Part shown: one piece after another, positions 12,242 through 62,500 of the stretch
How positions within the stretch are numbered: position 1 is the stretch's first letter
Layout: each line of letters begins with the position of its first letter
DNA from: an uncultured Chloroflexia bacterium
GTDB taxonomy: Bacteria; Chloroflexota; Limnocylindria; Limnocylindrales; CSP1-4
NCBI GenBank assembly: GCA_963707215.1
Contig: CAVPPB010000002.1
Location: forward strand, 415,491 to 479,490
Direction of reading: 5' to 3'
Length of the DNA: 64,000 nt
Program-made: the position numbers and the translations under genes
Notes under the pieces: model-generated
Seen by the model: only the letters and a program-made list of their open reading frames with translations
Database searches by the model: none
Told to the model about the DNA's origin: nothing

Positions 12242-13687
12242 TCAGCTCCCCCCGATCCCGGCGGTCGACTCGATGCCGGGCAGCGTCCGCGGATCACTGA
12301 CGACGCCGTGGACGGCACTCGCCGCGGCCGTCAGCGGCGAGGCCAGGAGCGTTCGCCCGCCCTTGCCCTGGCGGCCCTCGAAGTTGCGGTTGCTGGTGCT
12401 GATGGCGTACTGCCCGGGCGACAGCTGGTCGCCGTTCATGGCGATGCACATCGAGCAGCCGGCCTCGCGCCACTCCGCACCGGCCGCCCGGAAGACCTCG
12501 GCGAGGCCCTCCAGCTCGGCCTGCTTCTTCACCTCGGTCGAGCCGGGCACGACCATGACCCGGACGCCCTCGGCGACCCGACGCCCGCGGAGGACCTCGG
12601 CCGCCAGGCGGAGGTCGGAGATGCGGCCGTTGGTGCACGAGCCGATGAAGACGACGTCGACCTTCTGCCCCAGGATCGGCTGGCCGGGGCGCAGGTCCAT
12701 GTACTCGAGGGAGCGCTCGAGCGCCCGCCGAGCGGCGGCGTCCTCCTGCTCGTCCGGGGAGGGGACCGCGGCGCTGATCGGGATCCCCATGCCGGGGTTC
12801 GTGCCGTAGGTGACCATCGGCTCGAGGGCTGCCGCGTCGATGACGATCGAGCGGTCGAACTCGGCGTCCTCGTCGGTCGGGAGGGCTCGCCACGACTCGA
12901 TCGCGGCGTCCCAGGCGGTGCCCTGTGGGGCGTGGGGCCGCCCGGCGATGAACTCGAACGTCGTGTCGTCCGGTGCGACCAGTCCGGCCCGGGCCCCGCC
13001 CTCGATGCTCATGTTGCAGATCGTCATCCGCTGCTCCATGGTCAGCGCGCGGATGGCCTCGCCGCGGTACTCGAAGACGTGCCCGGTCCCGCCGCCGATG
13101 CCGATCCGGGCGATGAGGGCGAGGATGATGTCCTTGGCGCTTACGCCTGGCTTCAGCCGCCCGTCGACCCGGACCTCGTAGGTCCTCGGCCGGCGCTGCA
13201 GCAGGGTCTGGGTGGCGAGGACCATCTCGACCTCGCTGGTCCCGATGCCGAAGGCCAGCGCCCCGAAGGCGCCGTGCGTGCTGGTGTGACTGTCGCCGCA
13301 GACGATCGTCATCCCCGGCTGGGTCAGCCCCAGCTCCGGCCCGATGACGTGGACGATGCCCTGGTGAGGGGAGCCCATCCCGTGGAGCGGGATCCCGAAC
13401 TCACGGCAGTTGGCCTCGAGCTGGGCGACCTGGGCCGCCGCCATGGTGTCCAGGATCGGCAGGCTGCGGTCGTGGGTCGGGATCGAGTGGTCGGCGGTGG
13501 CGACCGTTCGTTCGGGGTGGCGGACGCGCAGGCCGCGGGCCCGGAGACCGGCAAAGGCCTGGGGGCTGGTGACCTCGTGGACGAGGTGCAGGTCGATCGC
13601 CAGGACCGTCGGTGCACCTGGGTCCTGGGCGACGACATGGTCGTCCCAGATCTTCTCGACGAGGGTTCGCGGTCGGGTGTCGGACAC
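12242..13687 (-). CDS. leuC: 3-isopropylmalate dehydratase large subunit
   Basis: GTG start 13687; [50 protein letters not shown]. Confidence 0.96.
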
Positions 13688-13897
13688 GGCGGGGCGACTC
13701 GCTGCGGTTCGAAGGAGCCTAGAGGGTAGCAGAGGCGGTCCGAGCGGCAGGTCCCCCGGCTCCGTCCGGCTCCCGGGGGCGGCCCGTCCGGCCCTTGGCC
13801 CGCGGCCCGGGCTGCGCTTGGCTGGAGCCGTAGCAGCCGGCCGTCGCGACGTCCGTGCCGTCGCCGCGCCCCGCGGTCGCTTCCTGGTGGAGCTCCC

Positions 13898-16564
13898 GTG
13901 TTCGAGCTGCTTGGTCGCCTCGTCGTTCGCCTCCGCCTCCCCATCGTCGTCGCCTGGCTGGTCGCTGCCGCGATCCTCTTCTTCGCCCCGTCGCTGCAGG
14001 ACGTCGGCACGGCCGACGAGTCCAGCTTCCTGCCGCGCGACGTCGGATCGGTCGCGGCCCGTGAGCTGCTGGCCAGGGGCTTTCCGGAGGACGACGCGGT
14101 CGGCACGGCGACCCTGGTCCTCGTCCGCGAGCCCGGCCCCCTGACCGACGCCGATCGTGCCTACCTCGACGAGCTGGCGGCGTGGCTGACCGACCCCGCT
14201 TCGGACCCGGCCCTGGATGGCGCCGTCAAGATGGTCGTGACGGCCGCGACCCGGCCGGAACGCGCGGCGCTCCTGAGGAGCGAGGACGGCACGACCGAGA
14301 TCGCGACGATCGAGCTGACCGTGCCGGCGTTCCAGGAGCGCGCCAACGAGGTGGTCGCGGCGCTGAGAGCGCGGATCGCCGGGACGGCCCCCGACGGCCT
14401 GCGCGTCCACGTCACCGGTCAGGCCGCCATCGGCGCCGACTACCTCCGGGCCATCGTCGACGGGACCGACCGGACGACGGTCGTGACGATCGCCCTGGTC
14501 ATCGTCATCCTGCTGGCGATCTACCGGGCTCCGCTCGCCGCCCTGGTACCGCTCCTGACGATCGGCGCCGCCTTCCTCGTCGCCCGTGGGCTCCTCGGGT
14601 GGCTGGCCCAGGCCGGCTGGTCGCTGAGCACCCTGATCGACTCCTTCGTCGTCGTCCTCGTCTTCGGCGTCGGAACCGACTACACCATCTTCCTCATCAG
14701 CCGCTACCGCGAGGAGCTGGGCCGGGTCGGCGCAGGTTCGCGGGACGCGGCGGGCCGAGGGATCGCCGCCCGGGTGACCGTGACCCGGATCGGTGCCGTG
14801 ATCACCGCCTCCGCGGCCACCGTGGTCGTCGGTCTCAGCGCCATGGTCATCGCCCGGTTCGGGATGATCCAGACGACCGGCCCCGCACTGGCCATCGCTA
14901 TCGTCGTGGCCCTGGCGGCGGGCCTGACCTTGGCGCCGGCGCTGCTCGTCCTCTTCGGGCCGGCGCTGTTCTGGCCACGTCACCCCAGGCCCGTCGGCCA
15001 GGAGACGGGTGCCGGCGTCTGGGACCGCGTGGCTGCCGGCATCGTCCGTCGGCCGCTGGTCGTCTCCCTGGTCGTCATCGCCGCCATGGCCCTGCCGATC
15101 CTGCTCATCCCCGGCGCCCGGACCGACTTCGACACGCTGGCCGAGCTGCCGGCCGAGTCGGACGCCCGGATGGGCTTCGACGTCGTGGCCGACCACATGG
15201 ACAAGGGGCGGCTCATGCCGATCATCGTCGCCATTCGGACGCCGGCGACCGACCTGACCTCGCCCGACGGCCTGACCGCGATCGCGGCCCTCGGCGATCG
15301 CCTGGCCGCGGTAGACGGCGTGGATTCGGTCCGCAGCCTCGTCAGCCCGACCGGTGAGGGCACCCCGGACGAGATGCGGATCTCGCCGCGCCTGCTCGAG
15401 CTGGCCGATGGGCTCGAGCGCCTGGGGGCTGGTCCAGCGGCGGTCCAGCTCGCCCTGGCCGATCCCGGCGCCGTGGCCGGACTGCGCACGGGACTGGGCT
15501 GGCTGGAGGCCAGGGCCGATGACGTGCCCGCGTTCCGTGCGCTGCCCGGGGCCGGCTCGCTCCGTGCCGACCTCGTGACCCTGACCGCCGCGATGGAGCG
15601 ACTAGCGGCCGCCGACGACCCGGCGACGGCTGCCGCCCTGGCCGGCGAGGCGTCCCAGGCCGCCGGGCGGGCTGCAGCGGCCCTCCGCTCGGCTGGCGTG
15701 GAGCTGGCCGGCGATCCCCGCCGCGACCTCTACCTCCCCGATGTCTCGGGGGGCGACGCCGGGGAAGAGCTCGACCGCCTCGTCGGCGAGTTCGTCGGTC
15801 CGGACGGGTCGGTCGGGCGGATCTACGTCGTCGCCGCAGACGACCCCTACTCGACGGTCGCCTTCGAGACGGTCGACCGGCTGCGCGACGCCGTGAGCGG
15901 GCAGATCGAGGGTATGCCCGAGGAGACGACCGTGCTGGTCGGCGGCTCGACCGCCGAGTTCACCGACATTCGGACGACGATGGACGGCGACTTCCGCTCG
16001 GTGGCCGTGGTCACGGTCATCGGCGTCCTGCTCGTCCTTGTCGTGCTCCTGCGGAGCCTGGTGGCCCCGATCTTCCTGGTCGCCACGGTCCTGCTGTCCT
16101 ACGGCACGACCCTCCACGTCGCTGGCGGCCTGTTCGAGGGCGTGCTGGGTCATGGCGGCATGAACTACTTCCTGCCCCTGCTCGTCTTCGTCCTCCTGGT
16201 CGCCCTCGGCTCGGACTACAACATCTTCGTGGTCAGCCGCATCCGCGAAGAGAGCGCCCACCGGCCCATCCGCGACGGCATCCGGGTGGGTGCGGCCCGG
16301 ACCGGCACGGTCATCACCTCGGCCGGGATCATCCTGGCCGGGACCTTCGCGGCCCTGATGACGGCGCCCCTGGAGCTGCTCTTCCAGGTGGGCGCGGCAG
16401 TCGCCCTCGGCGTCCTGCTCGACACCTTCGTCGTCCGCAGTCTCCTCGTGCCGGCCCTGATCGCGGTCTTCGGGGACCTGTCCTGGTGGCCCTCCGGATG
16501 GCATCGCCGGCGGCTCCCGCGCGGACGTCGTGCCGAGCTCTCGTCGGCGGGCCGGGGCCCCTGA
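13898..16564 (+). CDS. MMPL (RND-superfamily) transporter
   Basis: [18 protein letters not shown] and [33 protein letters not shown]. Confidence 0.92.
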
Positions 16565-16711: not shown

Positions 16712-17287
16712 GTGTTCATCCTCTATGCGCTCCTGGTCGGGCTCGTCGTCGGAGCGCTGACGGGGGGCCGACCGGCCCGCCTCGGCTCGCTGGAGATCCG
16801 CTGGCCATGGGTCATCGCCGGCGGACTCGCCGCCCAGCTGATCCTCTTCTCCGAGCCCGTGACCCGGGTCGTGGGCGACGCCGGGCCGCCCCTCTACATC
16901 CTCTCGACGCTGGCGGTCCTTGCTGCCGTCAGCGTCAACCGGCGGATCCCGGGCATCCCCCTGGTGATCGCCGGTGCCGTTTCGAACATGACCGCCATCG
17001 TCGCCAACGGCGGGTACATGCCGACCACGCCTGAGGCCCTGGCGGCCCTCGGCAAGCTGCCTCCGGAGACCTACTCGAACAGCTCGGTGCCGATCTCGCC
17101 GATGCTCTGGCCGCTGACCGACATCTTCGCCATGCCGGCCTGGCTGCCCTTCGCCAACGTCTTCAGCATCGGCGACGTGCTGATCGGGCTCGGCATCGCG
17201 ATCGCCGTGGTCGCCACGATGCGCCGGCCGGACGCCGATCCGGTGCCGCCCGGGGCGGCGGCCCCTCCGGGGGTCCTCGTCCCCTAG
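16712..17287 (+). CDS. DUF5317-like membrane protein with signal peptidase II-like motifs
   Basis: GTG after AAGGAG; GGR..RL..L..RW.W start, N..ANGGYMP, LTDIF, VFSIGD; multiple TM helices. Confidence 0.82.
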   Translation: MFILYALLVGLVVGALTGGRPARLGSLEIRWPWVIAGGLAAQLILFSEPVTRVVGDAGPPLYILSTLAVLAAVSVNRRIPGIPLVIAGAVSNMTAIVANGGYMPTTPEALAALGKLPPETYSNSSVPISPMLWPLTDIFAMPAWLPFANVFSIGDVLIGLGIAIAVVATMRRPDADPVPPGAAAPPGVLVP

Positions 17288-17438
17288 GGGCACCGACCGA
17301 CCCTCCCTCGAGCGGTCGTGGCGCCCCGGTGCACCGGCGAATCGGATCGGGCCCCCCGGTACCCATGAGCCAGTGGCCGCGATCCGGCCGTCACGTAGCG
17401 GTCGCCCCCGAGGGCGACGTCCGCCTTCCGCCGCAAGG

Positions 17439-17526
17439 CCGTCCAGGGCAAACCCGTCGCGAGGCGGGGACGCAAAGCCAGGGATCTTCAAGGACCAACG
17501 AAGACCGCCCGGTTGCCGGACCTACG
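17439..17526 (+). ncRNA. c-di-GMP-I (GEMM-I) riboswitch
   Basis: gtccAGGGCAAACCCGTC-GCGA-GGCGGGGACGCAAAGCC...GGTTGCCggac matches the class-I consensus; GNRA loop; P1 gtcc/ggac; G at the Vc2-G20-equivalent position. Confidence 0.92.
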
Positions 17527-17558
17527 GTGAGGTCTCGGGGAACGAGAGGTACAGACAC

Positions 17559-17648
17559 GTGAAGGCGAACCTGGCGCGCTTCACCACGGCCGTCGCGCTC
17601 CTGGCGTCGATGGCCCTCACCCTTGGCGCGGGGATGCGCTGGTGGTAG
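17559..17648 (+). CDS. Small signal-peptide-like precursor, 29 aa: MKANLARFTTAVALLASMALTLGAGMRWW
   Basis: RBS GAGAGG upstream of GTG, directly after the riboswitch; basic n-region, hydrophobic core, short aromatic tail. Confidence 0.75.
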   Translation: MKANLARFTTAVALLASMALTLGAGMRWW

Positions 17649-17680
17649 CTCCCTAGACGGGAACGACAAGGGAGACGACC

Positions 17681-17755
17681 ATGGACACGCTGAACATCCC
17701 CCTCGAGGATCGGGTGCCGGCCGTTGGTCCGATGGCCGGTCATCGGTGGAGCTGA
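17681..17755 (+). CDS. Second small peptide, 24 aa: MDTLNIPLEDRVPAVGPMAGHRWS
   Basis: Strong RBS AAGGGAG 6 nt before ATG; shares the AG-x-RW-x C-terminus with the preceding peptide. Confidence 0.55.
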   Translation: MDTLNIPLEDRVPAVGPMAGHRWS

Positions 17756-17788
17756 TCGCGACGACCGGTCGCGGCGGCCCGCATCGAG

Positions 17789-17817
17789 CGACCGCCGGGC
17801 GTCATGCCCGGCGGTCG
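17789..17817 (+). terminator. GC hairpin after the peptide ORFs
   Basis: CGACCGCCGGGC-gtcat-GCCCGGCGGTCG, perfect 12-bp stem, no clear U tract. Confidence 0.55.
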
Positions 17818-17946
17818 AGCGATTCAGGGGCTGGGACCGGTCCGTACCTTCGGGCCAGTCTCCCGGGGCTCGCTGCGGGCTAGTCTCGAGCCCTCCGGGG
17901 CGGTCCGGACGACCTGCCCCGAGCCTGCCGTACCAAGGGAGTGCCT

Positions 17947-20511
17947 GTGACCCCGAACCGGGTCATCCGAGCGCGCGCGATCGGGCTGTCCGTCGTCCTG
18001 GCTCGCCGCCCCAGGCTCGAGCCGTCGCAACGCGTCTGGCTGCTGACCATCGGCCTGGCCGTAGCGGCGACGCTCGTGCTCGCGCTGTCCGGCGGCTTCC
18101 TGTCCGGACGGGCGACGTCGGCGATCCCCTGGCCGCTCATCGCCCTGGGGATGTACCTGGCCGAGGTCAAGGTCGTCGTCGTCCACTTCCGTCGCGAGAG
18201 CCACTCCTTCTCGCTGAGCGAGATCCCGGCCGTCATCGGACTCTTCCTCCTGAGCCCCATGGACTACGTGCTGGCGGCGACGATCGGACCGACCCTGGCC
18301 TTCGTCTACCCGGCCCGTCAGCCCTTCATCAAGGCGGCCTTCAACGCCGTCAACTACCTTCTCATCGCCTCGGTCTCGCTGGTCACCTTCCAGATCCTGG
18401 CGCCCGGCGGCGTCGTCGGCCAGCCGGGCGCCCAGGCCTGGCTGGCGGCCTTCGTGGCGATGCTCGTCTCCACGGTCATCAGCAGCCTGACCATCGCCTC
18501 GGTCATCACCCTGTCGGGCGGGGCGCCGCAGTTCCAGAAGATGCCGGAGATGCTCCAGTTCGGCGGTCTCGTGGCGCTCGCCAACACCAGCATCGGTCTC
18601 CTTGCCCTCGCGGTCGTCAGCGTCGACCCGGCCGGCATCTGGCTCCTGATCGTGCCCATCGCCGCGGTCTTCCTTGCCTACCGGGCCTACGTCTCGGAGC
18701 GTGAGAAGAAGGAACGCCTGGAGCTGCTCTACCAGTCGAGCCGCATCCTCCAGCACACGCCCGAGCTCGACGCGGCGCTGATCGCCTTGCTCGACCACGC
18801 CCGCGACATGTTCCGGTCCGAGCGGGTCGACTGCCGTCTCGTGCCGGCGGCCGGGGGGCCCGTCCTGCTGACCCGCTCGCTGCTCGATGTCGAGCCGATC
18901 GTCATGGAGGCCCAGCCCGAGGGTCCGGACGACGAGCTCTCGGCCGTGCTCCAGCAGCGGAGCGACGCCTTCATCTACCGGCCGGAGGCACCGGGCTCCG
19001 GGATCCGCCAGGCGATGGTCGCTCCGCTGGCCGGCGAGGACCGGCCGATCGGCCACCTCATCGTCGCCAACCGGCTGGGGGAGGCCTCCTCCTACGGGGT
19101 CGACGACCTTCGCCTCCTCGAGACGCTCGCCGGGCAGGTGGCCGTCGCCCTCCAGAACGGCCAGCTGGAGCAGTCACTCACGGAGCTGTCCCGGCTGAAG
19201 GACGAGCTCCGTCACCAGGCCTATCACGACTCCCTGACAAGGCTGGGCAACCGGGTCCTCTTCGCCGAGGCCGTCGAACAGAGTCTGGCCGTGGCCTCGG
19301 ACCTGGAGACCGTCGTCCTGTTCCTGGACCTCGACGACTTCAAGATGGTCAACGACACGATGGGTCATGCCGTCGGGGACCGGCTCCTGGGCGTCGTCGC
19401 CGAGCGCATCTCCCGGAGCGTCCGCGAGACCGATGTGGCGGCCCGCCTGGGTGGCGACGAGTTCGCGGTCCTGGTCCACGACCAGCCCGATCTCCGGGTC
19501 GCACTGGCCCTGGCCGGTCGGCTCCGCGAGGAGCTCCATCGTCCCGTCCGCCTGGGTGGCAGCGAGACGGTGGTCGACGTCAGCATCGGGATCGCCGCCG
19601 CCTCGAAGGGCGTCGGCGCCGACGAGCTGCTCCGCAACGCGGACATCGCGATGTACAAGGCCAAGACCGATGGCAAGGGCCGGGTGGCGCTCTTCGACCC
19701 GACGATCCATGCCGCCATCGTCGCCCGCCATGCCCTCGGGACGGACCTGACCCGGGGGCTCCTGCAGAACCAGTTCGAGCTCTACTACCAGCCGATCGTC
19801 GTGCTCGGGACGGGATCGATCTCGGGCTACGAGGCGCTGCTGCGCTGGCATCACCCGCAGCGCGGTCTGATCACCCCCGACGACTTCATCCGGGTGGCCG
19901 AGGAGACGGGCTCCATCGTCGACATCGGGGCCTGGGTCCTCCGGGAGGCCTGTGGGCAGGCCACGGCCTGGTCGGCCCTGCCCGGCATGGACGATCGGCT
20001 CTCGATCAGCGTCAACGTCTCGCCGCGCCAGCTCCAGGACCCGGAGTTCGTGGACCTTGTCCTGGGAGTGCTCCGCGAGACCAGCCTTCCGCCCGAGCGG
20101 CTCGTCCTCGAAGTGACCGAGACGGCGATGTTCCAGGACCCGGTCACCGTCGGCGCGAAGCTCGAGGCGCTCCGCGAGGTGGGTGTGCGGGTCGCCCTGG
20201 ACGACTTCGGCACCGGCTATGCATCGCTCAGCCATCTCCGCCGGTTCCCGGTCGACATCCTCAAGATCGCCCGCGACTTCGTCGTCGACGCCGACGCCGA
20301 AGACGACGCCTGGGCCTTCGCGGCGGCGATCGTCGCACTGGCCCGGACCCTCCAGCTCCAGGTCGTGGCGGAGGGCATCGAGCAGTCGCGCCAGGTCGAG
20401 CGGCTGCGCGGCCTCGGGTGCCAGCTGGGCCAGGGCTACTTCCTCGCCCGCCCCGCTCCGGCGGCGGTCATCGATGCTTCCATCGGCGCCGTCGGCTCGG
20501 CGACGGCCTGA
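17947..20511 (+). CDS. Multipass membrane sensor-GAF-GGDEF-EAL diguanylate cyclase/phosphodiesterase
   Basis: About 6-7 N-terminal TM helices, GAF-like region, DLDDFK..ND..GH..GD, RETD I-site, GGDEF, EALLRW, DDFGTGY, AEGIE; start 17941 or 17947. Confidence 0.93.
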   Translation: MTPNRVIRARAIGLSVVLARRPRLEPSQRVWLLTIGLAVAATLVLALSGGFLSGRATSAIPWPLIALGMYLAEVKVVVVHFRRESHSFSLSEIPAVIGLFLLSPMDYVLAATIGPTLAFVYPARQPFIKAAFNAVNYLLIASVSLVTFQILAPGGVVGQPGAQAWLAAFVAMLVSTVISSLTIASVITLSGGAPQFQKMPEMLQFGGLVALANTSIGLLALAVVSVDPAGIWLLIVPIAAVFLAYRAYVSEREKKERLELLYQSSRILQHTPELDAALIALLDHARDMFRSERVDCRLVPAAGGPVLLTRSLLDVEPIVMEAQPEGPDDELSAVLQQRSDAFIYRPEAPGSGIRQAMVAPLAGEDRPIGHLIVANRLGEASSYGVDDLRLLETLAGQVAVALQNGQLEQSLTELSRLKDELRHQAYHDSLTRLGNRVLFAEAVEQSLAVASDLETVVLFLDLDDFKMVNDTMGHAVGDRLLGVVAERISRSVRETDVAARLGGDEFAVLVHDQPDLRVALALAGRLREELHRPVRLGGSETVVDVSIGIAAASKGVGADELLRNADIAMYKAKTDGKGRVALFDPTIHAAIVARHALGTDLTRGLLQNQFELYYQPIVVLGTGSISGYEALLRWHHPQRGLITPDDFIRVAEETGSIVDIGAWVLREACGQATAWSALPGMDDRLSISVNVSPRQLQDPEFVDLVLGVLRETSLPPERLVLEVTETAMFQDPVTVGAKLEALREVGVRVALDDFGTGYASLSHLRRFPVDILKIARDFVVDADAEDDAWAFAAAIVALARTLQLQVVAEGIEQSRQVERLRGLGCQLGQGYFLARPAPAAVIDASIGAVGSATA

Positions 20512-20681: not shown

Positions 20682-20810
20682 ATGCCCACCGACTCAGGCC
20701 TGATCGACCTCCCCATCGTCGGCTCGCTCCTTCTCGGGCTCGAGAGCCTTCTCGGGCTCATCACCGGCTCCCGGCGGGAGAACGGAGGGACGCGGAAGAC
20801 GGGCCGCTAG
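20682..20810 (+). CDS. Leu/Ile/Val-rich attenuator leader peptide
   Basis: MPTDSGLIDLPIVGSLLLGLESLLGLITGSRRENGGTRKTGR; alternative in-frame TTG start at 20610; includes CTT Leu codons, uncommon in this GC-rich DNA. Confidence 0.7.
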   Translation: MPTDSGLIDLPIVGSLLLGLESLLGLITGSRRENGGTRKTGR

Positions 20811-20832
20811 CGCGGACGGAGACCGAAGACCG

Positions 20833-20864
20833 AAGGGACCCTCGCCGGGAGGCGAGGGTCTTTT
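20833..20864 (+). terminator. Attenuator terminator upstream of ilvB
   Basis: GACCCTCGCC-ggga-GGCGAGGGTC-TTTT; complementary antiterminator CTCCCGGCGGG at 20768-20778. Confidence 0.82.
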
Positions 20865-20952
20865 GCATGCCGGGAGACGGCGCCGAACGGCTCGGCGGGT
20901 CGACCGGGACGGGGCGGGGCCCCGGAGCGGATCGAGAGGGCGGGTGATCACG

Positions 20953-22836
20953 ATGACGAAGGGCGAAGGAGCGGCAAGTCCGGCGCCGCCGGATGCCCCG
21001 TCGACGGCGACCGGCGGCGAGCGCCGCAGCCACGTCCCAGCGGCCGGGACGGCCCATGCGGCGGCGGTCGAGAAGGCCCAGCGCGACATGCTCCACGAGG
21101 CTGCTCCCCGGAAACGGACCCGGATCGGCGCGGACGTCGTCTGCGAGGCCCTGATCGGCCAGGGCGTCGACGTCTTCTTCAGCTACCCGGGCGGCGTCAT
21201 CCTGCCCCTCTACGACGTCCTCGGCGACTACCCGGAACTCCGCCACGTCCTCGTCCGTCACGAGCAGGGCGGCGCCCACGCCGCCGACGGCTACGCCCGG
21301 GCCACCGGCAGGGTCGGCGTCTGCATGGGCACATCGGGCCCCGGCGCCACCAACCTGGTCACCGGCCTGGCCACGGCGATGCTCGACTCGGTGCCGATGG
21401 TCGCCATCACCGGCAACGTGCCGGGGGCCCTCATCGGCAAGGACGCCTTCCAGGAGATCGACATCACCGGCATCACCCTGCCGATGACGAAGCACAACTA
21501 CCTGGTCCGCGACGCGGAGGACCTGCCGCGCGTCCTCGCCGAGGCCTTCCACATCGCCCGCACCGGCCGACCCGGCCCGGTCCACGTCGACATCACCAAG
21601 GACGCCCTCCAGCAGGAGACGGCGGCTCCGCACCCGACGATCGAGGAGGTCAAGGCGGGCCTGCCCGGCTTCCGGCCGACCTTCGACGGCCATCCCCGCC
21701 AGATCAAGGTGGCGGCCCGGGAGGTCGCCTCGGCCCGCCGGCCGGTCATCCTGGCCGGTCACGGCATCCTGATCGCCGGGGCCGAGGCCGAGCTCCTCGA
21801 GCTGGCCGAGAAGGCCCGCATCCCGATCACCTGGACCCTCCTGGGGATCGGCGCCGTGGACGAGACCCACCCGCTCGCCTACGGCTACATGGGCATGCAC
21901 GGCTGGAAGCACGTCAACCGCGCCATCCAGTCGGCCGACCTGCTCATCGCCCTGGGGATGCGCTTCGACGACCGGGTGACCGGCAACGTCAAGACGTACG
22001 CCCCGCACGCCAGGATCATCCATGTCGATCTCGACCCCTCCGAGATCGGCAAGAACGTGGCCGTCGAGGTCCCCATCGTCGGCGACGTCAAGCGCGTCCT
22101 GAAGGCCATGATCCCGATGATCGACGAGGTCGATCCCGCCGAGCGCGAGGCCTACCTGGCCGAGCTGGCCGAGTGGCGTGAGGAGTCCGAGGGCACCAGC
22201 TGGCACGGCTCGGGCGCCTGGCGCGACGGCTACCTCTCGGCCGACTACGTGATCGAGCGACTCGGTGAGCTGACCGACCATGACGCGACGTACGTCGCCG
22301 ACGTCGGCCAGCACCAGATGTGGCTGGCTCGCTACTGCGGCTTCCGGCGGCCCGGCTCGCACCTCTCGTCGGGCGGCCTCGGGACGATGGGCTACAGCAT
22401 GCCGGCGGCGATGGGCGCAGCCCTGGGCCGACCGGACAAGGAGACCTGGGCCATCTGTGGCGACGGGGGCTTCCAGATGACCCTCCAGGAGCTGGCCACC
22501 CTGGTCCAGGACGACATCCCGGTGAAGATCGCCCTGATGGACAACAAGAAGCTCGGGATGATCCGCCAGTGGCAGGAGATCGTCTACGCGGGCAACTATC
22601 ACTCGTCGAACATGCTGGGGCCCGACTACCTCAAGCTGGCCGACGCCTACGGCATCCCGGGCTTCAAGGCCTCGACGCCCGAGGAGGTCGACCCGGCCAT
22701 CCGGGCCGCCCAGGCGGCCGACGGCCCGGCGCTCGTCTGGTTCGAGACCGCCGAGTCGCAGAACGTCTACCCGATGATGCCGGCCGGCAAGGGCCTCTCC
22801 GACCTCATCGAGAAGTGGAACGAGCCCGAGGAATGA
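20953..22836 (+). CDS. ilvB: Acetolactate synthase large subunit (biosynthetic)
   Basis: YPGG..LP.YD, RHEQG..HAADGYARATG, TSGPGATN, FQE.D, GMHG, RFDDRVTG, GDGGFQM. Confidence 0.95.
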   Translation: MTKGEGAASPAPPDAPSTATGGERRSHVPAAGTAHAAAVEKAQRDMLHEAAPRKRTRIGADVVCEALIGQGVDVFFSYPGGVILPLYDVLGDYPELRHVLVRHEQGGAHAADGYARATGRVGVCMGTSGPGATNLVTGLATAMLDSVPMVAITGNVPGALIGKDAFQEIDITGITLPMTKHNYLVRDAEDLPRVLAEAFHIARTGRPGPVHVDITKDALQQETAAPHPTIEEVKAGLPGFRPTFDGHPRQIKVAAREVASARRPVILAGHGILIAGAEAELLELAEKARIPITWTLLGIGAVDETHPLAYGYMGMHGWKHVNRAIQSADLLIALGMRFDDRVTGNVKTYAPHARIIHVDLDPSEIGKNVAVEVPIVGDVKRVLKAMIPMIDEVDPAEREAYLAELAEWREESEGTSWHGSGAWRDGYLSADYVIERLGELTDHDATYVADVGQHQMWLARYCGFRRPGSHLSSGGLGTMGYSMPAAMGAALGRPDKETWAICGDGGFQMTLQELATLVQDDIPVKIALMDNKKLGMIRQWQEIVYAGNYHSSNMLGPDYLKLADAYGIPGFKASTPEEVDPAIRAAQAADGPALVWFETAESQNVYPMMPAGKGLSDLIEKWNEPEE

Positions 22837-23452
22837 GCGGACGATCCGGCGGCGATCCCGCCACCACCGCATCCGGCCCGACCGCCGCGCCGACCCCGGC
22901 GCCGGCCCACAGCGCGCCGCCCTCGCGGGCCGTCCCCGGCACGGGCGAGCACCACCGCCACGTCCTGGTGACCGTGGTCATGAACCGGCCCGGCGTCCTG
23001 AACCGCGTCGCCTCGCTGATGCGGGCCCGCAACTTCAACATCGAGTCGCTGGCGGTGAACCACACCGATGATCCCGAGATCAGCCGGATGACGATCACCC
23101 TCTACGGCGACGACGTGGCCGTAGAGCAGGCGACCAAGCAGCTCTACCGGCTCATCGACGTGCTCAAGGTCCAGGACGTCACCAGCGACCCGACCGTCGA
23201 GCACGAGCTGGCGCTCGTCAAGGTCCGGGCCACCGACCGGGCCCGGGCCGAGGTCCTCAAGGTCGTCGAGCTCTCGAAGGGCCGGGTCGTGGACCTCTCG
23301 CCGGACTCGGTCATCGTCGAGGTGACCGGAACGGAAGCCGAGGTGGACGCGGCCATCGCGCTCCTCCGCGGCTTCGGCATCAAGGAGCTCATCCGGACCG
23401 GGACCGTGGTCATGTCGCGGGGCTCGGGATCCATCGAGGAGGCGATCAAGCG

Positions 23453-58728: not shown

Positions 58729-58822
58729 ACCTCCCCGGCAACCCGGCTGACTGGGAAGGCCATCGGCCGCCAGTCCCGTGGCTTTGCGTCCCCGCCTCGC
58801 GACGGGTTTGCCTTGATCGGAG
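58729..58822 (-). ncRNA. c-di-GMP-I (GEMM-I) riboswitch, translational type
   Basis: Minus strand AAGGCAAACCCGTC-GCGA-GGCGGGGACGCAAAGCCACGGG...GGGTTGCC directly followed by RBS GGGGAGG. Confidence 0.92.
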
Positions 58823-59501: not shown

Positions 59502-62500
59502 ATGACCGAGCGATCAACGTCAACCGGTGGCACCCGATTGGTGTCGCCGGGCGAGCTCCTTCAGGAGCTCGAAACCAGAACAGCCGTCCCGAAGCGCGCA
59601 AGGGCGCGGCGGGCCGCGTCGTCTCGCCGCTTCGGGCTTGCGGGCGGCCTTCGGCGCCGCCATGCTGATGTCGGGCTCGTGCCGGGCGTGTTCGGCACGA
59701 CCGTGATCAGCATGACGACCGCTGGAGCGACCGCGGACCAAACGGAGCCATCTTCCAGCAGGGTCCGTTGCCCACCTCGGCCGGCACCGGCGTGCTCGAT
59801 CCGTTCCTTCGGATCAGCGCAATCTGGATGAGGTGAAGGGCTACAACACTGACTACCGGCCGCTGCAGTACCAGGAAGACAGTCCCTGGACGGAGTCGCT
59901 CCTCCTGAGCACCGTTCCGACGATCGAGTACAACGGGGGCCTCTATCGAGTCTTTCTCCTGGACATCAACCAGGTGAACAGCGTCCCGGCTGTCGCTGGA
60001 CGAGCTCCGCTCTTCCTTGCGAACAGCCCCACGCTCACCAACTTCGATCCGGCGGCGAACACGTTCGGGGGCGTCCCATACACGCCGGTACTGGGAGTTG
60101 GGCGATGCGTGGATCCACCTGAACCGCGCTCGAGGCAGGCTCCGGCGACTCCGACATGTCCATGCTCGTTCCGAGTCGGTCTTCGCTGGTGCTGAGAACT
60201 GCGACTACGGGCAGGCCGGATGCACCACCTGGTTGTACATGTACAACCACTTCGGCATCCAATACCCGAACAACGACGGCTTCGAGGAATGGGCCACGCA
60301 GGTCCTGCCGTTCGTCCAGGTCGAGAAGACGGCCGAAGGCACCTTCGACCGCGAGTACGACTGGGACATCACCAAGGACTTCGACGGCACGTACTCGAAG
60401 TTCATCGGCGATTCGGCGACCAGCCACGGCTACGAGGTCTCCGTCGACCTGACGACGACCGACTCGAACGCCGAGGTCACCGGCGAGATCACCCTCACTG
60501 TCCCTGACAAGCTCCCGGACGGCGAGAAGAACGCGCCGGATGCCGTCGTTACGAGTATCGAGGACGTCTTCGACGTCGGGCCGACGACCGGGACGGTCAC
60601 GTGTCCGGACCTGTTCCCGTTCACGGTCCAGGCGGGCGATCCCGTCGTCTGCACCTACAGCCTGACACCGCCGACGGCGACCCCTGGGACGAACACGGTG
60701 TCGTGTCGAGAATCGAGGACAACCCGACGCCGTTCGAGGCCACGGCCGACGTGACCACGTGCACGGAGAACTCGATCGGCTACACCTCGATCAACGTCAC
60801 CGACACGAATGGGCAGGCGTGGGGTCCGGTCTCAGGTGACACCACCTGGACCTACAACAAGGACTTCACCTGCTCGTCGAACCGGCCGACTACACCGACG
60901 GCTATTACAGCTACTCGGTGACCAACACGGCCTCGATCGACGAGACCGGTGCGTCTGATACGGCCACCGTCACCGTCAACTGCTACGCCCCGGTGGTGAG
61001 CAAGACGGCCGACGGCGCGTTCGATCGGACCTACACCTGGACGATCGACAAGGAGTACGACGGCACGTACTCGAAGTTCATCGGCGATCCGGCGACGACC
61101 CACGACTACCTCGTGACCGTCGACAAGACGACCACCGACTCGAACTTCGAGGTCACCGGCTCGATCACCATCGAGAACCCGCACCCGACCGCCGCGATGT
61201 CGCTGACCTCGGTCACCGACGCGCTCTCCTCGGGTGAGACGGCGACCGTCGACTGCGGTGGGGCCACCTCGGTCCCGGCAGCCGACAGCCTCGTCTGCAC
61301 CTACTCGGCCGAGCCGGCCAATGCCGACCCCGGCACGAACCGGCCACGGTCGCGTTCAACGGGATCGACTTCCCGGCGACCGACGGCTACACCTTCAGCT
61401 TCACCGAGTACGGCTACCCGACGATCAACGTCACCGACGACATCGAAGGGTCGCTCGGCTCGGCGTCAGATGACGCCACGTTCCCGTACGACGCCGACTT
61501 CACCTGCTCGTCGAACCCGGCCGACTACACCGACGGCTATTACAGCTACTCGGTGACCAACACGGCCTCGATCGACGAGACCGGTGCGTCGATACGGCCA
61601 CCGTCACCGTCAACTGCTACGCCCCGGTGGTGAGCAAGACGGCCGACGGCGCGTTCGATCGGACCTACACCTGGACGATCGACAAGGAGTACGACGGCAC
61701 GTACTCGAAGTTCATCGGCGATCCGGCGACGACCCACGACTACCTCGTGACCGTCGACAAGACGACCACCGACTCGAACTTCGAGGTCACCGGCTCGATC
61801 ACCATCGAGAACCCGCACCCGACCGCCGCGATGTCGCTGACCTCGGTCACCGACGCGCTCTCCTCGGGTGAGACGGCGACCGTCGACTGCGGTGGGGCCA
61901 CCTCGGTCCCGGCAGCCGACAGCCTCGTCTGCACCTACTCGGCCGAGCCGGCCAATGCCGACCCCGGCACGAACACGGCCACGGTCGCGTTCAACGGGAT
62001 CGACTTCCCGGCGACCGACGGCTACACCTTCAGCTTCACCGAGTACGGCTACCCGACGATCAACGTCACCGACGACATCGAAGGGTCGCTCGGCTCGGCG
62101 TCAGATGACGCCACGTTCCCGTACGACGCCGACTTCACCTGCTCGTCGAACCCGGCCGACTACACCGACGGCTATTACAGCTACTCGGTGACCAACGCGG
62201 CCTCGATCGACGAGACCGGTGCGTCTGATACGGCCACCGTCACCGTCAACTGCTACGCCCCGGTGGTGAGCAAGACCGCTGACGGAACGTTCGACCGCGA
62301 TTGGACCTGGGAGATCGACAAGACGGGCGACCAGACGAACCTGGAGCTCGCCGTCGGCCAGCAGTTCCTCGTCAACTACTCGGTGACCGTGACGGCCACC
62401 AGCGCTGACTCGGACTACGAGGTCACCGGCAATATCTACGTCGAGAACCCGACCGGCTCGCCCGGCTCGATGGCCGTAGACGTCGCCGACAAGATCGGCA

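What the first reader, a model, noticed from the sequence alone, without database searches (positions are those of the whole stretch)
17681..17755. Second micro-ORF with the same C-terminal motif but a hydrophilic leader
Seen: AAGGGAG-N6-ATG, encoding MDTLNIPLEDRVPAVGPMAGHRWS. It ends in AG-x-RW-x-stop exactly like peptide 1, and both ORFs are preceded by GGGAACGA. It is absent from the supplied track. Inference: a second signal, a cytoplasmic decoy/antagonist, or a substrate for a different export route. Two independent ORFs ending in the same motif argue that the motif is functional.
Basis: partly seen in the sequence, partly recalled or inferred. Interest (0 to 1): 0.76.

Follow-up and report, generated by a model that had tools for sequence, protein, structure and literature searches.

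The report
Conserved second riboswitch-controlled micro-gene
The 24-codon reading frame is a real, conserved tiny gene, the second of a pair that sits behind a c-di-GMP-type riboswitch in a group of soil and water bacteria, and only its last few amino acids (…A-G-H-R-W) are kept by evolution, so that short motif is probably what does the work.

Summary
Observation confirmed. ATG 17681-17755 (+) encodes MDTLNIPLEDRVPAVGPMAGHRWS behind AAGGGAG-N6. It lies 32 nt after a 29-codon ORF (17559-17648, …LGAGMRWW). Only these 2 of 678 window ORFs end in AG-x-RW-x.

New here: a c-di-GMP-I-GGC riboswitch (17438-17521; 65.6 bits, cut-off 59) precedes the pair, and a terminator-like hairpin (17789-17817) follows it. 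The unit recurs in 58 loci, mostly labelled Chloroflexota/Limnocylindria. In one search, 59 of 61 first ORFs are followed by a second ORF within -10 to +39 nt. Arg-Trp is invariant in 60 of 60 second ORFs and Gly is kept in 57 of 60 through all four Gly codons, which indicates selection on the protein.

The second ORF is a paralogue of the first. Of 59 unique versions, 25 keep a membrane helix, 23 are non-membrane like this one, and 11 have only 9-15 codons. The helix state changed at least 3-8 times.

The cassette usually adjoins a DUF5317 membrane protein and a GGDEF-EAL enzyme. Function is inferred: a riboswitch-gated peptide effector acting through its motif. Rivals are a cis-acting nascent peptide and an exported signal. 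The closest analogue is the C. difficile riboswitch-controlled small-protein family. Expression was not tested.

The parts
16712..17287 (+). DUF5317 membrane-protein gene. The ORF is open from 16619; the conserved start is Met32 of that ORF.
   Evidence: Pfam PF17248, E 2.6e-27. The start was placed from alignment A4 of 25 homologues. It lies next to the micro-ORF cassette in most related loci.
17438..17521 (+). c-di-GMP-I-GGC type riboswitch aptamer
   Evidence: Rfam RF03167, 65.6 bits against a gathering score of 59, E 2.7e-14, full model 1-80. It was found again in the whole-genome search.
17533..17547 (+). Short hairpin whose 3' arm overlaps the Shine-Dalgarno sequence (GAGAGG) of micro-ORF 1. 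It is a candidate expression platform.
   Evidence: Minimum-free-energy fold of the stretch after the aptamer. Similar hairpins containing the ribosome-binding site appear in many related loci. The direction of switching is unresolved.
17538..17545 (+). First copy of GGGAACGA, 13 nt before the GTG of micro-ORF 1
17559..17648 (+). Micro-ORF 1 (pep1): MKANLARFTTAVALLASMALTLGAGMRWW. It has a basic N-terminus, one hydrophobic helix, and G-A-G-x-R-W.
   Evidence: Alignment A1 has 10 invariant columns. 61 homologous ORFs were found in 56 of 58 loci.
17659..17666 (+). Second copy of GGGAACGA, 14 nt before the ATG of micro-ORF 2
17668..17674 (+). Shine-Dalgarno sequence AAGGGAG of micro-ORF 2, 6 nt before the ATG
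17681..17755 (+). Micro-ORF 2 (pep2, the finding): MDTLNIPLEDRVPAVGPMAGHRWS. It is hydrophilic (best 15-residue Kyte-Doolittle mean 0.34). Its conserved part is G-P-x-(A/S)-G-H-R-W.
17751..17778 (+). First hairpin after pep2. Its 5' arm includes the pep2 stop codon.
   Evidence: RNA fold of 17750-17945, z = -3.38
17789..17817 (+). Terminator-like hairpin of 12 G+C-rich pairs (CGACCGCCGGGC / GCCCGGCGGTCG). The tail GAUUCAGG is poor in U.
   Evidence: Homologous hairpins, often GACCG(C/T)CGG…CCGGCGGTC plus a U-rich tail, follow pep2 in 59 of 59 sequences examined.
17941..20511 (+). Membrane GAF-GGDEF-EAL protein gene (makes or breaks c-di-GMP). Here it lies downstream of the cassette; in most relatives it lies upstream of DUF5317.
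   Evidence: Pfam EAL 1.6e-71, GGDEF 3.8e-42, GAF. Synteny.

Best explanation
Micro-ORF 2 is a genuine, translated micro-gene. It is the second cistron of a small self-contained unit. The unit consists of a c-di-GMP-type riboswitch, pep1 (a 29-aa single-helix membrane peptide), pep2, and a terminator hairpin. This unit is characteristic of a Chloroflexota lineage whose named records are labelled Limnocylindria.

Pep2 is a paralogue of pep1 and of a wider family of about 32-aa membrane micro-proteins that end in L-E-A-G-x-R-W. Members of that family are usually encoded right after a DUF5317 membrane-protein gene.

In the window's clade, pep2 has lost the membrane helix and keeps only the motif (A/S)-G-H-R-W near its C-terminus.

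Inferred mechanism:
- The riboswitch sets how much pep1 and pep2 are made, depending on the level of c-di-GMP or a related dinucleotide.
- The peptides act as products through the R-W motif on a shared partner. The best candidate is the neighbouring DUF5317 membrane protein, and through it or beside it the GGDEF-EAL enzyme. This would give the c-di-GMP module a peptide-mediated feedback.
- The helix-less pep2 serves as a motif-only modulator of pep1's action, either a competitor or a co-factor.

What is shown and what is inferred:
- Shown: the ORF, the riboswitch, the conservation, protein-level selection, the gene linkage and the terminator hairpin.
- Inferred: translation in vivo, the ligand, the partner and the direction of regulation.
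For: 1. Anatomy. The ORF has a strong Shine-Dalgarno sequence. A riboswitch above Rfam's cut-off lies directly upstream.

2. Recurrence.
- The search for related loci returned 58 loci.
- My pattern found 61 pep1 ORFs in 56 of these loci. 59 of them are followed by a pep2 that starts -10 to +39 nt from the pep1 stop, often as TGATG or TAGnnATG.
- The two loci the pattern missed (L089, L099) show both ORFs.

3. Protein-level selection, in 60 distinct pep2 DNA sequences.
- R is present in 60/60 and W in 60/60.
- G is present in 57/60, spread over GGC 18, GGT 16, GGA 16 and GGG 7.
- H is present in 45/60, with CAC 28 and CAT 17.
- A or S fills the preceding position in 60/60 through 7 codons.

4. 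Paralogy. Pep1, helix-type pep2 and the riboswitch-less peptides align over their whole length with the same spacing from the basic residue to A-G-x-R-W.

5. The motif outlives the helix.
- The 59 unique pep2 comprise 25 helix-type, 23 non-helix longer than 15 aa, and 11 of 9-15 aa.
- On a DUF5317 tree of 49 rows the helix/no-helix state needs at least 8 changes, 3 of them forced by well-supported branches.
- The window sits in a clade of 6 helix-less rows (SH-aLRT 88) with end branches of 0.01-0.84 changes per site. All six keep …(A/S)GHRW.

6. Self-contained unit.
- A G+C-rich hairpin of 9-14 pairs lies 14-47 nt after the pep2 stop in 59 of 59 sequences.
- It is predicted to form (P >= 0.8) in 55 of 59, both free and with a ribosome footprint at the stop masked.
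- The downstream gene varies: GGDEF-EAL here, ilvB at 228-3616 nt in 29 loci, and others.

7. Link to DUF5317.
- DUF5317 is adjacent in most cassette loci.
- A second DUF5317 gene in the same genome is followed by a single riboswitch-less peptide, MKRIKLETVRVVLVLSALASMALALEAGRRWF. The same arrangement occurs in 5 other genomes.
- 13 of 17 family hits with E <= 1e-6 lie within 2.5 kb of a DUF5317 hit.
- Both DUF5317 and the peptides were found in family f1 (34/36 and 19/36 genomes). Neither was found in the small-genome family f2 (0/24 and 0/24).

8. Precedent. C. difficile has small membrane-associated proteins behind class I c-di-GMP riboswitches, with riboswitch-less paralogues (PMC13724677; abstract, section 7 and Discussion read).
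Against: - No expression or translation data.
- Neither peptide matches a Pfam or NCBIfam family, so nothing is known about the motif's chemistry.
- Topology problem. By the positive-inside rule (established knowledge, not computed by a tool here), helix-type peptides should put A-G-x-R-W outside the cell. A helix-less pep2 has no export signal and should stay inside. One shared binding site is therefore not easy to picture.
- Pep2 versions of 9-11 aa are very short for a stable product.
- DUF5317 occurs widely without such peptides: 0 of 19 DUF5317 loci from other Chloroflexota families have them. 4 of the 17 strong peptide hits are not near a DUF5317 gene.
- The DUF5317 model (pLDDT 81.7) matched no solved fold at E <= 0.001, so its activity is unknown.
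- RF03167 is a variant aptamer, and its ligand was not verified here.
- In about half of the loci a co-directional ilvB follows, so a cis effect on downstream genes is not excluded by synteny alone.
Confidence: 0.45

Rival explanations
1. Cis-acting regulatory micro-ORF. What matters is the act of translating pep2, or its nascent chain …A-G-H-R-W inside the ribosome. In this view, a pause at or near the motif sets the fate of the mRNA or the read-through of the following hairpin. It would thereby set expression of whatever lies downstream, which in this window is the GGDEF-EAL gene.
For: - Only the last 5-7 residues are conserved. 11 of 59 unique pep2 have just 9-15 codons, a size typical of regulatory leader ORFs (recalled: TnaC, SpeFL, Erm leaders).
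- Conservation is at the amino-acid level, not the nucleotide level, as expected for a nascent-chain effector.
- Pep2 is almost always translationally coupled to pep1.
- In the window it lies 185 nt upstream of a gene on the same strand, with two stable hairpins between (z -3.38). The first hairpin includes the stop codon.
- The Arg codon is CGC in 57 of 60 sequences, an unexplained bias.
Against: - The hairpin is predicted to form equally well with a ribosome footprint at the stop masked (55 of 59 in both states).
- I saw no recurrent antiterminator pairing, but I looked by eye in only 3 loci (window, L044, L049).
- The distance from Trp to the stop varies: 0-8 residues in pep2 and 0-20 in pep1.
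- The downstream gene is not conserved.
- 25 of 59 pep2 keep a full, conserved membrane helix.
- Riboswitch-less single copies stand after DUF5317, which fits a product better than a leader.
Confidence: 0.2
2. Exported peptide signals. In this view pep1 and helix-type pep2 are signal-peptide-like precursors. They have a basic N-terminus, a hydrophobic core, and small residues L-(G/E)-A before G. Cleavage would release a 4-6 residue peptide G-x-R-W-x outside the cell. The helix-less pep2 would then be a non-exported variant, either a decoy or a peptide exported by another route.
For: - The architecture of pep1 and of the 25 helix-type pep2 resembles short pheromone precursors whose C-terminal residues form the mature peptide (recalled: SHP, ComS/XIP with a WW motif, PrgQ/iCF10).
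- Paralogue-specific residues just before R-W (M/I in pep1, H/Q in pep2) would give two distinct signals.
- A DUF5317 domain is fused to an MFS_3 exporter-type transporter elsewhere in the genome.
- An MMPL transporter gene precedes DUF5317 in the window.
Against: - No receptor of the kinds known for such peptides lies among the window's neighbours. The neighbours are leuC-like, MMPL, DUF5317, GGDEF-EAL and ilvBNC.
- No peptidase or ABC exporter is adjacent.
- 34 of 59 pep2, including this one, have no hydrophobic export segment yet keep the motif.
- The tail after Trp varies from 0 to 20 residues.
- Cleavage was not predicted by any tool here.
Confidence: 0.12
3. Decaying duplicate. In this view pep2 in this clade is a remnant of a membrane micro-protein gene that lost its function, and the motif survives by inertia.
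For: - The N-terminal two thirds of pep2 are poorly conserved (alignment A2: 5 invariant columns, all within the last 7).
- The genome has an intact helix-type paralogue elsewhere (L102).
Against: - R-W is kept in 60 of 60 sequences and Gly in 57 of 60 despite free use of synonymous codons.
- The frame stays open, with a start next to the pep1 stop, in 59 of 61 cases.
- The motif is kept across at least 3-8 separate changes of helix state, and within a helix-less clade with long branches.
Confidence: 0.05
4. Minimal precursor of a modified peptide. In this view the H-R-W end is cross-linked or otherwise modified by an enzyme, as in very small ribosomally made natural products.
For: A tiny ORF with a conserved aromatic C-terminal tripeptide (H-x-W) recalls the 5-residue biarylitide precursors (recalled, not checked in a paper here).
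Against: - No P450, radical-SAM or other tailoring enzyme lies among the conserved neighbours.
- In pep1 the position before R is hydrophobic, not His.
- The conserved partner gene is a membrane protein of unknown function.
Confidence: 0.04

Closest known systems
C. difficile CD1980.2 family: small membrane-associated proteins behind class I c-di-GMP riboswitches (PMC13724677; abstract, section 7 and Discussion read)
   Same: - Small unannotated or 'hypothetical' ORFs are the only cargo of c-di-GMP-I type riboswitches.
- The family is multicopy.
- Some paralogues lack a riboswitch.
- The proteins are membrane-associated (true here of pep1 and helix-type pep2).
- Their molecular partner is unknown.
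   Different: - The C. difficile proteins are 58 aa and nearly identical to each other, and the paper reports no homologues outside C. difficile.
- The peptides here are 9-37 aa and occur as a coupled pair of two diverged paralogues.
- They share an (A/S)-G-x-R-W motif.
- Pep2 of this window has no membrane segment.
- They are linked to DUF5317 and a GGDEF-EAL gene, in Chloroflexota.
- Regulation and phenotype are untested.
- Sequence similarity to the C. difficile proteins was not tested, because I held no sequence of them.
Small membrane proteins that tune larger membrane proteins (recalled: MgrB-PhoQ, KdpF-KdpABC, AcrZ-AcrB, MgtS)
   Same: Pep1 and helix-type pep2 have the size and single-helix build. 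They are encoded beside a candidate partner, and a feedback logic is possible.
   Different: - There is no homology to these proteins.
- The functional part appears to be a short polar or aromatic motif after the helix.
- The motif persists when the helix is lost.
- Control is by a riboswitch.
Regulatory leader and arrest peptides (recalled: TnaC, SpeFL, TrpL, Erm leaders)
   Same: Very short ORFs in a leader-like RNA. The C-terminal residues, including Trp, are conserved at the amino-acid level. A hairpin follows.
   Different: - There is no run of regulatory codons.
- The distance from the motif to the stop varies.
- The hairpin is not predicted to respond to a ribosome at the stop.
- The downstream gene is not conserved.
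Short hydrophobic peptide pheromone precursors (recalled: SHP/Rgg, ComS/ComR XIP, PrgQ/iCF10)
   Same: ORFs of 20-35 codons with a basic N-terminus and a hydrophobic body. The C-terminal residues carry the information. Some end in Trp-Trp, as does pep1 of the window.
   Different: There is no cognate cytoplasmic receptor gene nearby. Pep2 of the window has no hydrophobic body. The phylum is different. Processing and export are unknown.

Membership tests
c-di-GMP-I-GGC riboswitch (Rfam RF03167), for the element in front of the pair | Covariance-model score at or above the curated gathering score over the full model | tested here: met
   65.6 bits against 59, model positions 1-80 of 80, E 2.7e-14. 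Found again in the genome search, together with a second copy at window 58733-58821 (-) scoring 67.6 bits.
c-di-GMP-I-GGC riboswitch (Rfam RF03167) | Binds its ligand and switches expression | not testable with these tools
   The ligand of this variant was not verified in any paper I could read (one search failed; two searches gave passages only). A hairpin containing the ribosome-binding site follows the aptamer, but the direction of switching is unresolved.
R-W micro-protein family of this lineage (unnamed; defined in this report) | Short ORF with (A/S)-(G/Q)-x-(R/K)-W within 0-8 residues of the stop | tested here: met
   The window's pep2 ends in A-G-H-R-W-S. The same holds in 59 relatives (A5; codon table).
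R-W micro-protein family of this lineage | Single hydrophobic helix before the motif | tested here: not met
   The best 15-residue Kyte-Doolittle mean is 0.34 for the window's pep2, against my threshold of 1.6. 34 of 59 unique pep2 fail in the same way. It is a derived member, placed in the family by position, motif and intermediate forms.
R-W micro-protein family of this lineage | Encoded directly after pep1 and/or near a DUF5317 gene | tested here: met
   It lies 32 nt after pep1 and 394 nt after the DUF5317 stop.
C. difficile CD1980.2-type riboswitch-controlled small proteins | Downstream of a class I c-di-GMP riboswitch | tested here: met
   A variant of the same Rfam clan (CL00126) lies 38 nt before pep1 and 160 nt before pep2.
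C. difficile CD1980.2-type riboswitch-controlled small proteins | 58-aa protein homologous to CD1980.2, membrane-associated | tested here: not met
   Pep2 is 24 aa and has no hydrophobic segment. Sequence homology was not tested, because I held no sequence. The paper states that there are no homologues outside C. difficile.
Attenuation leader peptides (trpL / ilv leader type) | Run of codons for the regulating amino acid | tested here: not met
   Pep2 has a single Trp codon and no run of Ile, Leu or Val codons.
Attenuation leader peptides (trpL / ilv leader type) | Terminator whose formation depends on ribosome position, followed by the regulated biosynthetic operon | tested here: not met
   The predicted probability of the hairpin is unchanged by masking a ribosome footprint at the stop (55 of 59 in both states). 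ilvB follows in 29 of 58 loci at 228-3616 nt; other genes follow elsewhere, and GGDEF-EAL follows here. This is a folding prediction only.
Ribosome arrest peptides (TnaC / SpeFL / SecM type) | Conserved C-terminal residues at a fixed distance from the arrest or stop site | tested here: inconclusive
   The motif is conserved at the amino-acid level, but Trp lies 0-8 residues from the stop in pep2. Arrest itself cannot be tested here.
Peptide pheromone precursors of the SHP / ComS / PrgQ kind | Adjacent gene for the cognate cytoplasmic receptor, and a hydrophobic precursor | tested here: not met
   The window's neighbours are leuC-like, MMPL, DUF5317, GGDEF-EAL, ilvB, ilvN and ilvC. Pep2 is hydrophilic.
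Type I toxins (small hydrophobic membrane toxins) | Hydrophobic membrane-spanning peptide | tested here: not met
   Pep2 of the window has no such segment. An antisense RNA was not looked for.
Minimal modified-peptide precursors (biarylitide type) | Adjacent tailoring enzyme (P450 or similar) | tested here: not met
   None was found among the Pfam assignments of the neighbours.

The most novel reading that the evidence does not exclude
The five-to-seven-residue motif (E/D)-(A/S)-G-(H/Q)-R-W would itself be the effector. On this reading, a genetically encoded mini-peptide, in some genomes only 9-11 codons long (for example MAPLAGHRW), is made under riboswitch control. It acts inside the cell as a ligand of the c-di-GMP machinery, either on DUF5317 or the GGDEF-EAL enzyme, or by binding the dinucleotide itself through Arg-Trp stacking. 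That would make the unit a new class of second-messenger output: a riboswitch whose only cargo is a pair of peptide ligands, one anchored in the membrane and one free.
Probability: 0.2. Interest if true: 0.85.

Novelty: new variant of a known kind. Interest (0 to 1): 0.68.

Why it matters
Riboswitch-controlled small proteins have only just been tied to c-di-GMP signalling, in one pathogen (PMC13724677). This locus shows a second, unrelated case in an uncultivated, environmentally common Chloroflexota lineage.

It has an unusual feature. Evolution has repeatedly stripped the second peptide down to a short motif, leaving ORFs of 9-24 codons that gene callers miss. If the motif is the active part, it gives a directly testable handle: synthetic peptides, point mutants and binding assays.

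Such tests could address three things:
- the function of the widespread DUF5317 membrane family;
- what the variant c-di-GMP-I-GGC aptamer controls;
- how very small gene products can act.

It also gives annotators a concrete family to add. A profile search found 147 representative clusters, none with a name other than 'hypothetical protein' among those I looked up.

Tried and rejected
- Scan of genome contigs with a degenerate DNA pattern of my own for pep1. Distribution was then taken from the search for related loci with alignment A1.
- The search for homologous proteins with the pep2 alignment failed because the query is too short (24 aa, minimum 40). The large named-protein collection therefore could not be searched for helix-less pep2.
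- Complex prediction of the L102 DUF5317 with its 32-aa peptide gave scores of 0.25 and 0.27, below the mark of 0.32. The tool gave no verdict, so this is not evidence either way.
- The look-up of sequencing runs failed four times and then listed 24 runs. There is therefore no expression evidence and no habitat claim.
- Idea that DUF5317 is a GxGD-type intramembrane aspartyl protease. It came from the conserved T-D and S-I-G-D seen in alignments A4 and A6. It is not supported: Foldseek against the PDB found no match at E <= 0.001, and the top hits were MraY at E 1.8.
- My first synteny reading was wrong. I took it that a convergent 703-aa gene follows the cassette. That frame is the antisense of ilvB (TPP-enzyme domains on the + strand). 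ilvB is co-directional.
- ilv or trp attenuation leader: rejected (see the membership tests).
- ON or OFF logic of the riboswitch. The mean probability that the ribosome-binding site is unpaired was 0.38 with the aptamer included in the fold and 0.40 without it (50 sequences). No conclusion could be drawn.
- The sigma-70 promoter scan of 17200-18100 found none. The terminator scan, which needs a T-run, found only one site on the minus strand inside the aptamer.
- The Rfam hit mir-598 at 18111-18186 (26.6 bits against 69) is a chance match.
- The ESM Atlas search with the 32-aa paralogue returned only unnamed 'hypothetical protein' clusters, at 0.93, 0.91 and 0.90.
- Literature searches found nothing on these peptides:
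  - 'DUF5317': 0 papers.
  - 'Limnocylindria' + 'c-di-GMP': 0 papers.
  - 'c-di-GMP-I-GGC': 3 papers, listing only.
  - 'Chloroflex' + 'c-di-GMP riboswitch': 5 papers, listing only.
  - A five-term search: 11 papers, listing only.
  - A DOI look-up of the paper I recall as the source of the GGC variant: not held.
  - Supplementary files were not opened.
Full report
1. THE OBSERVATION

The ORF is there as described. One search shows AAGGGAG at 17668-17674, six bases, then ATG at 17681. One search lists 17681..17755 (+), 24 aa. The product is MDTLNIPLEDRVPAVGPMAGHRWS.

The ORF lies 32 nt downstream of GTG 17559-17648, which encodes MKANLARFTTAVALLASMALTLGAGMRWW. Both end in A-G-x-R-W-x-stop.

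- Of 678 stop-delimited ORFs of at least 10 aa in the six frames of the window, these are the only 2 with that ending.
- The 8-mer GGGAACGA occurs twice on the + strand of the window, at 17538 and 17659. That is 13 and 14 nt before the two start codons. About one occurrence is expected. This looks like a local duplication of the translation-initiation region.
- Neither peptide matches Pfam or NCBIfam.
- Neither exact sequence is among about 15 billion predicted proteins.

2. WHAT SURROUNDS IT

2.1 The riboswitch. Rfam RF03167 (c-di-GMP-I-GGC) matches 17438-17521 at 65.6 bits, against a gathering score of 59, over the full model.

2.2 The genes on the + strand:
- an MMPL transporter (13898-16564);
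- a DUF5317 membrane protein (16712-17287; Pfam 2.6e-27);
- the riboswitch, pep1 and pep2;
- a membrane GAF-GGDEF-EAL protein (17941-20511);
- ilvB, ilvN and ilvC.

A leuC-like gene lies on the other strand upstream.

2.3 The hairpins after pep2. Two stable hairpins follow (fold z = -3.38). The second, at 17789-17817, has 12 G+C-rich pairs.

3. RELATED SEQUENCES

3.1 Where the unit is found.
- A DNA search of 60 relatives matched mainly the riboswitch and pep1, not pep2.
- Translating the loci showed a second micro-ORF ending in …G-H-R-W behind pep1 in other genera.
- A scan of one genome per species with the pep1 alignment A1 returned 58 loci. 52 are labelled Chloroflexota, Chloroflexia, Anaerolineaceae or Candidatus Limnocylindria/-ales. 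6 carry other phylum labels but have the same gene neighbourhood.
- These named loci overlap with the unnamed relatives. The two sets must therefore not be added together.

3.2 How regularly pep2 follows pep1.
- My pattern found 61 pep1 ORFs in 56 of the 58 loci. Four loci have 2-3 tandem cassettes.
- 59 of the 61 are followed by a pep2 whose start lies -10 to +39 nt from the pep1 stop, typically as TGATG or TAGnnATG.
- The two loci that the pattern missed (L089, L099) show both ORFs.
- The window's own arrangement, a 32-nt gap and a separate ribosome-binding site, is the exception.

4. IS IT CODING?

In 60 distinct pep2 DNA sequences:
- Arg and Trp of the motif are invariant.
- Gly before them is kept in 57, through GGC 18, GGT 16, GGA 16 and GGG 7.
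- His (45) uses CAC 28 and CAT 17. Gln replaces it in 14.
- The Ala/Ser position uses seven codons.

This is the signature of selection on the amino acids, not on an RNA motif. One oddity remains: the Arg codon is CGC in 57 of 60 pep2, but CGG in 37 of 62 pep1.

5. WHAT KIND OF GENE IS IT?

5.1 Paralogy. Pep1 (A1), helix-type pep2 (A3, A7) and the window's type (A2) all belong to one family. A5 aligns the 59 pep2 of all types together. The family plan is a basic N-terminus, one hydrophobic helix with a central Ser, then (G/E)-A-G-x-R-W. Each paralogue has its own signature:
- pep1: T-L-G-A-G-(M/I)-R-W;
- pep2: V-(L/I)-(E/D)-(A/S)-G-(H/Q)-R-W.

5.2 Loss of the helix. Among 59 unique pep2, 25 keep the helix, 23 are longer than 15 aa but not hydrophobic (this one has a best 15-residue mean of 0.34), and 11 have only 9-15 residues, for example MAPLAGHRW, MEPTAQQRWQ and MTIESGHRWELITTL. 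Intermediates are visible, for example MKTPFMAQLRALSIGTRGDTDVVIDSGHRW.

5.3 How often the helix state changed.
- The tree was built from 49 of the adjacent DUF5317 proteins. 10 loci were left out for lack of a qualifying DUF5317 match or of a pep2.
- On it the helix/no-helix state needs at least 8 changes, 3 of them forced by well-supported branches. Label shuffles gave a mean of 15, and 0 of 500 were as low.
- The window falls in a clade of six helix-less rows (SH-aLRT 88) that all keep …P-x-(A/S)-G-H-R-W.

So the helix of pep2 is dispensable in this setting and the motif is not.

6. THE UNIT IS SELF-CONTAINED

- A G+C-rich hairpin of 9-14 pairs lies 14-47 nt (median 30) after the pep2 stop in 59 of 59 sequences. 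It is often GACCG(C/T)CGG…CCGGCGGTC.
- At least 4 U occur in the next 10 nt in 27 of 59.
- The hairpin is predicted to form with P >= 0.8 in 55 of 59. The figure is the same when a ribosome footprint at the stop codon is masked.
- What follows varies: GGDEF-EAL here; ilvB on the same strand at 228-3616 nt in 29 loci; other or no recognised genes within the flank elsewhere.
- I first misread the antisense frame of ilvB as a convergent gene. One search corrected this.

7. THE LINK TO DUF5317 AND c-di-GMP ENZYMES

7.1 Gene order. The commonest order is GGDEF-EAL, DUF5317, riboswitch, pep1, pep2.

7.2 Other copies in the window's genome.
- There are three DUF5317 matches in all.
- One, outside the window, is followed after about 120 nt by a single peptide, MKRIKLETVRVVLVLSALASMALALEAGRRWF. 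It has no riboswitch at Rfam's cut-off. The same arrangement occurs in five other genomes.
- The third DUF5317 match is fused to an MFS_3 transporter.

7.3 Co-occurrence.
- Of 17 family hits with E <= 1e-6 in the relatives, 13 lie within 2.5 kb of a DUF5317 hit.
- DUF5317 and the peptides were found in family f1 (34/36 and 19/36 genomes). Neither was found in the 24 small genomes of family f2.
- A genome of another family of the same class has DUF5317, an RF03167 riboswitch, pep1 and pep2 (L133).
- In 19 DUF5317 loci from other Chloroflexota families no such micro-ORF follows. DUF5317 itself was found in 92 of 301 genomes of the phylum. That tally includes one genome flagged as unpublished, G280.
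- The peptides are therefore a lineage-specific addition to DUF5317.

7.4 Size of the helix-type family. A profile of the helix-type peptides found 147 representative clusters at E <= 0.001 among 1.84 billion proteins. The long hits are ORFs called too far upstream, through the riboswitch. One (P0002) is a natural pep1-pep2 fusion, and one (P0129) is a chance hit. Where a name exists it is 'hypothetical protein'.

8. HOW IT MOST LIKELY WORKS

8.1 Shown: the riboswitch, the two selected ORFs, their coupling, the terminator-like hairpin and the linkage to DUF5317 and GGDEF-EAL.

8.2 Inferred:
- The riboswitch gates synthesis of both peptides. A hairpin containing the ribosome-binding site follows the aptamer, but I could not tell ON from OFF.
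- The peptides act as products through the R-W motif on a shared partner, most plausibly DUF5317 and/or the GGDEF-EAL enzyme. This would give the second-messenger module a peptide feedback.
- The helix-less pep2 of this window would be a motif-only modulator.

I put this at 0.45.

8.3 Main difficulties:
- Topology. The motif of helix-type peptides should face outwards, while a helix-less pep2 should stay inside.
- The extreme shortness of some pep2.

8.4 Rivals:
- A cis-acting nascent peptide or translation-dependent control (0.20). It is favoured by the shortness and the C-terminal-only conservation. It is weakened by the ribosome-insensitive hairpin, the variable distance from motif to stop, the variable downstream gene and the riboswitch-less copies.
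- Exported signal peptides (0.12).
- A decaying duplicate (0.05).
- A modified-peptide precursor (0.04).

9. COMPARISON WITH WHAT IS KNOWN

- The closest described system is the C. difficile CD1980.2 family. These are 58-aa membrane-associated proteins behind class I c-di-GMP riboswitches. They are repressed by c-di-GMP, are multicopy and have riboswitch-less paralogues. The paper reports no homologues outside that species (PMC13724677; abstract, section 7 and Discussion read).
- The present unit works like that system in outline. It is not a member: the size, the pairing, the motif and the lineage all differ.
- Six literature searches found nothing on these peptides or on DUF5317. Supplements were not seen.
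- The DUF5317 model (pLDDT 81.7) matched no solved structure at E <= 0.001.

10. WHAT REMAINS OPEN

- Expression and translation are untested.
- The complex prediction gave no verdict.
- The large named-protein search does not accept such short queries.

11. VERDICT

The micro-ORF is a real, selected gene of a previously undescribed family. Its mechanism is still a hypothesis.

Noticed in passing
window 58733-58821 (-): A second c-di-GMP-I-GGC riboswitch (67.6 bits). It is not followed by an R-W micro-ORF. It is followed by a frame starting around MSYWDGTHWERED… that contains one hydrophobic helix (…EGTIIALLTVGLIAGTAFAG…) and then low-complexity sequence. This may be another small riboswitch-controlled membrane protein.
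   Followed up: partly
G000:C2:342652-343391 (-), locus L102 (outside the window): A second DUF5317 gene of the same genome is followed by a single 32-aa helix-type R-W peptide without a riboswitch. That exact peptide is on record in public collections without a name.
   Followed up: yes
G000:C2:331513-331569 (+), locus L107: A fourth R-W micro-ORF (…LTLVALTAIALSLQAGMRWH) that is not next to a DUF5317 gene. Its neighbours are unresolved; the only assignment is a weak BPD_transp_1 hit on the other strand.
   Followed up: partly
G000:C2:17828-18268 (-), locus L108:1293-3344: A 684-aa protein with DUF5317 at the N-terminus (residues 26-172) fused to an MFS_3/MFS_1 transporter (residues 290-677). 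Open frames of similar length around DUF5317 hits occur in many relatives.
   Followed up: partly
protein P0002 (metagenome, 70 aa): A natural fusion of pep1 and pep2 into one frame (…TLGAGIQ-VKAVLRSQ…EAGRRWS). The R-W and stop of pep1 are missing. It is a single record and could be a sequencing error.
   Followed up: no
window 20761-22872 (-) versus 20863-22836 (+): A 703-aa open frame antisense to ilvB is conserved in relatives at 50-65% identity only because it mirrors ilvB. It has no Pfam family, whereas the + frame has all three TPP-enzyme domains. This is a trap for ORF-based annotation in this G+C-rich genome. In the same way, the 984-aa 'aconitase' frame 12242-15196 (-) is real only in its C-terminal half and overlaps the MMPL gene.
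   Followed up: yes
window 60949-60999, 61553-61633, 62219-62269 (+): Three short frames end in the same …IRPPSPSTATPRW, about 600-670 nt apart. Tandem Repeats Finder (longest period 500) reports no array there. This may be a dispersed or long-period repeat, or a repeated protein domain read out of frame.
   Followed up: partly
loci L054, L066, L079, L086: The whole unit (riboswitch, pep1, pep2) is duplicated in tandem 2-3 times. In L054 and L079 one copy lacks pep2.
   Followed up: partly
loci L010 and L027: Cassettes in which the aptamer scores best as ordinary c-di-GMP-I (RF01051; 52.2 and 43.7 bits) rather than as the GGC variant. In L010 pep1 is degenerate (MRANLARFITSGANVLPDLTSGETDR) while pep2 is an intact helix type. 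L027 has only the pep2 type.
   Followed up: partly
pep2 motif, all loci: The invariant Arg of pep2 is encoded by CGC in 57 of 60 sequences, while the equivalent Arg of pep1 uses CGG 37, CGC 15 and AAG (Lys) 7. This codon bias is unexplained.
   Followed up: no
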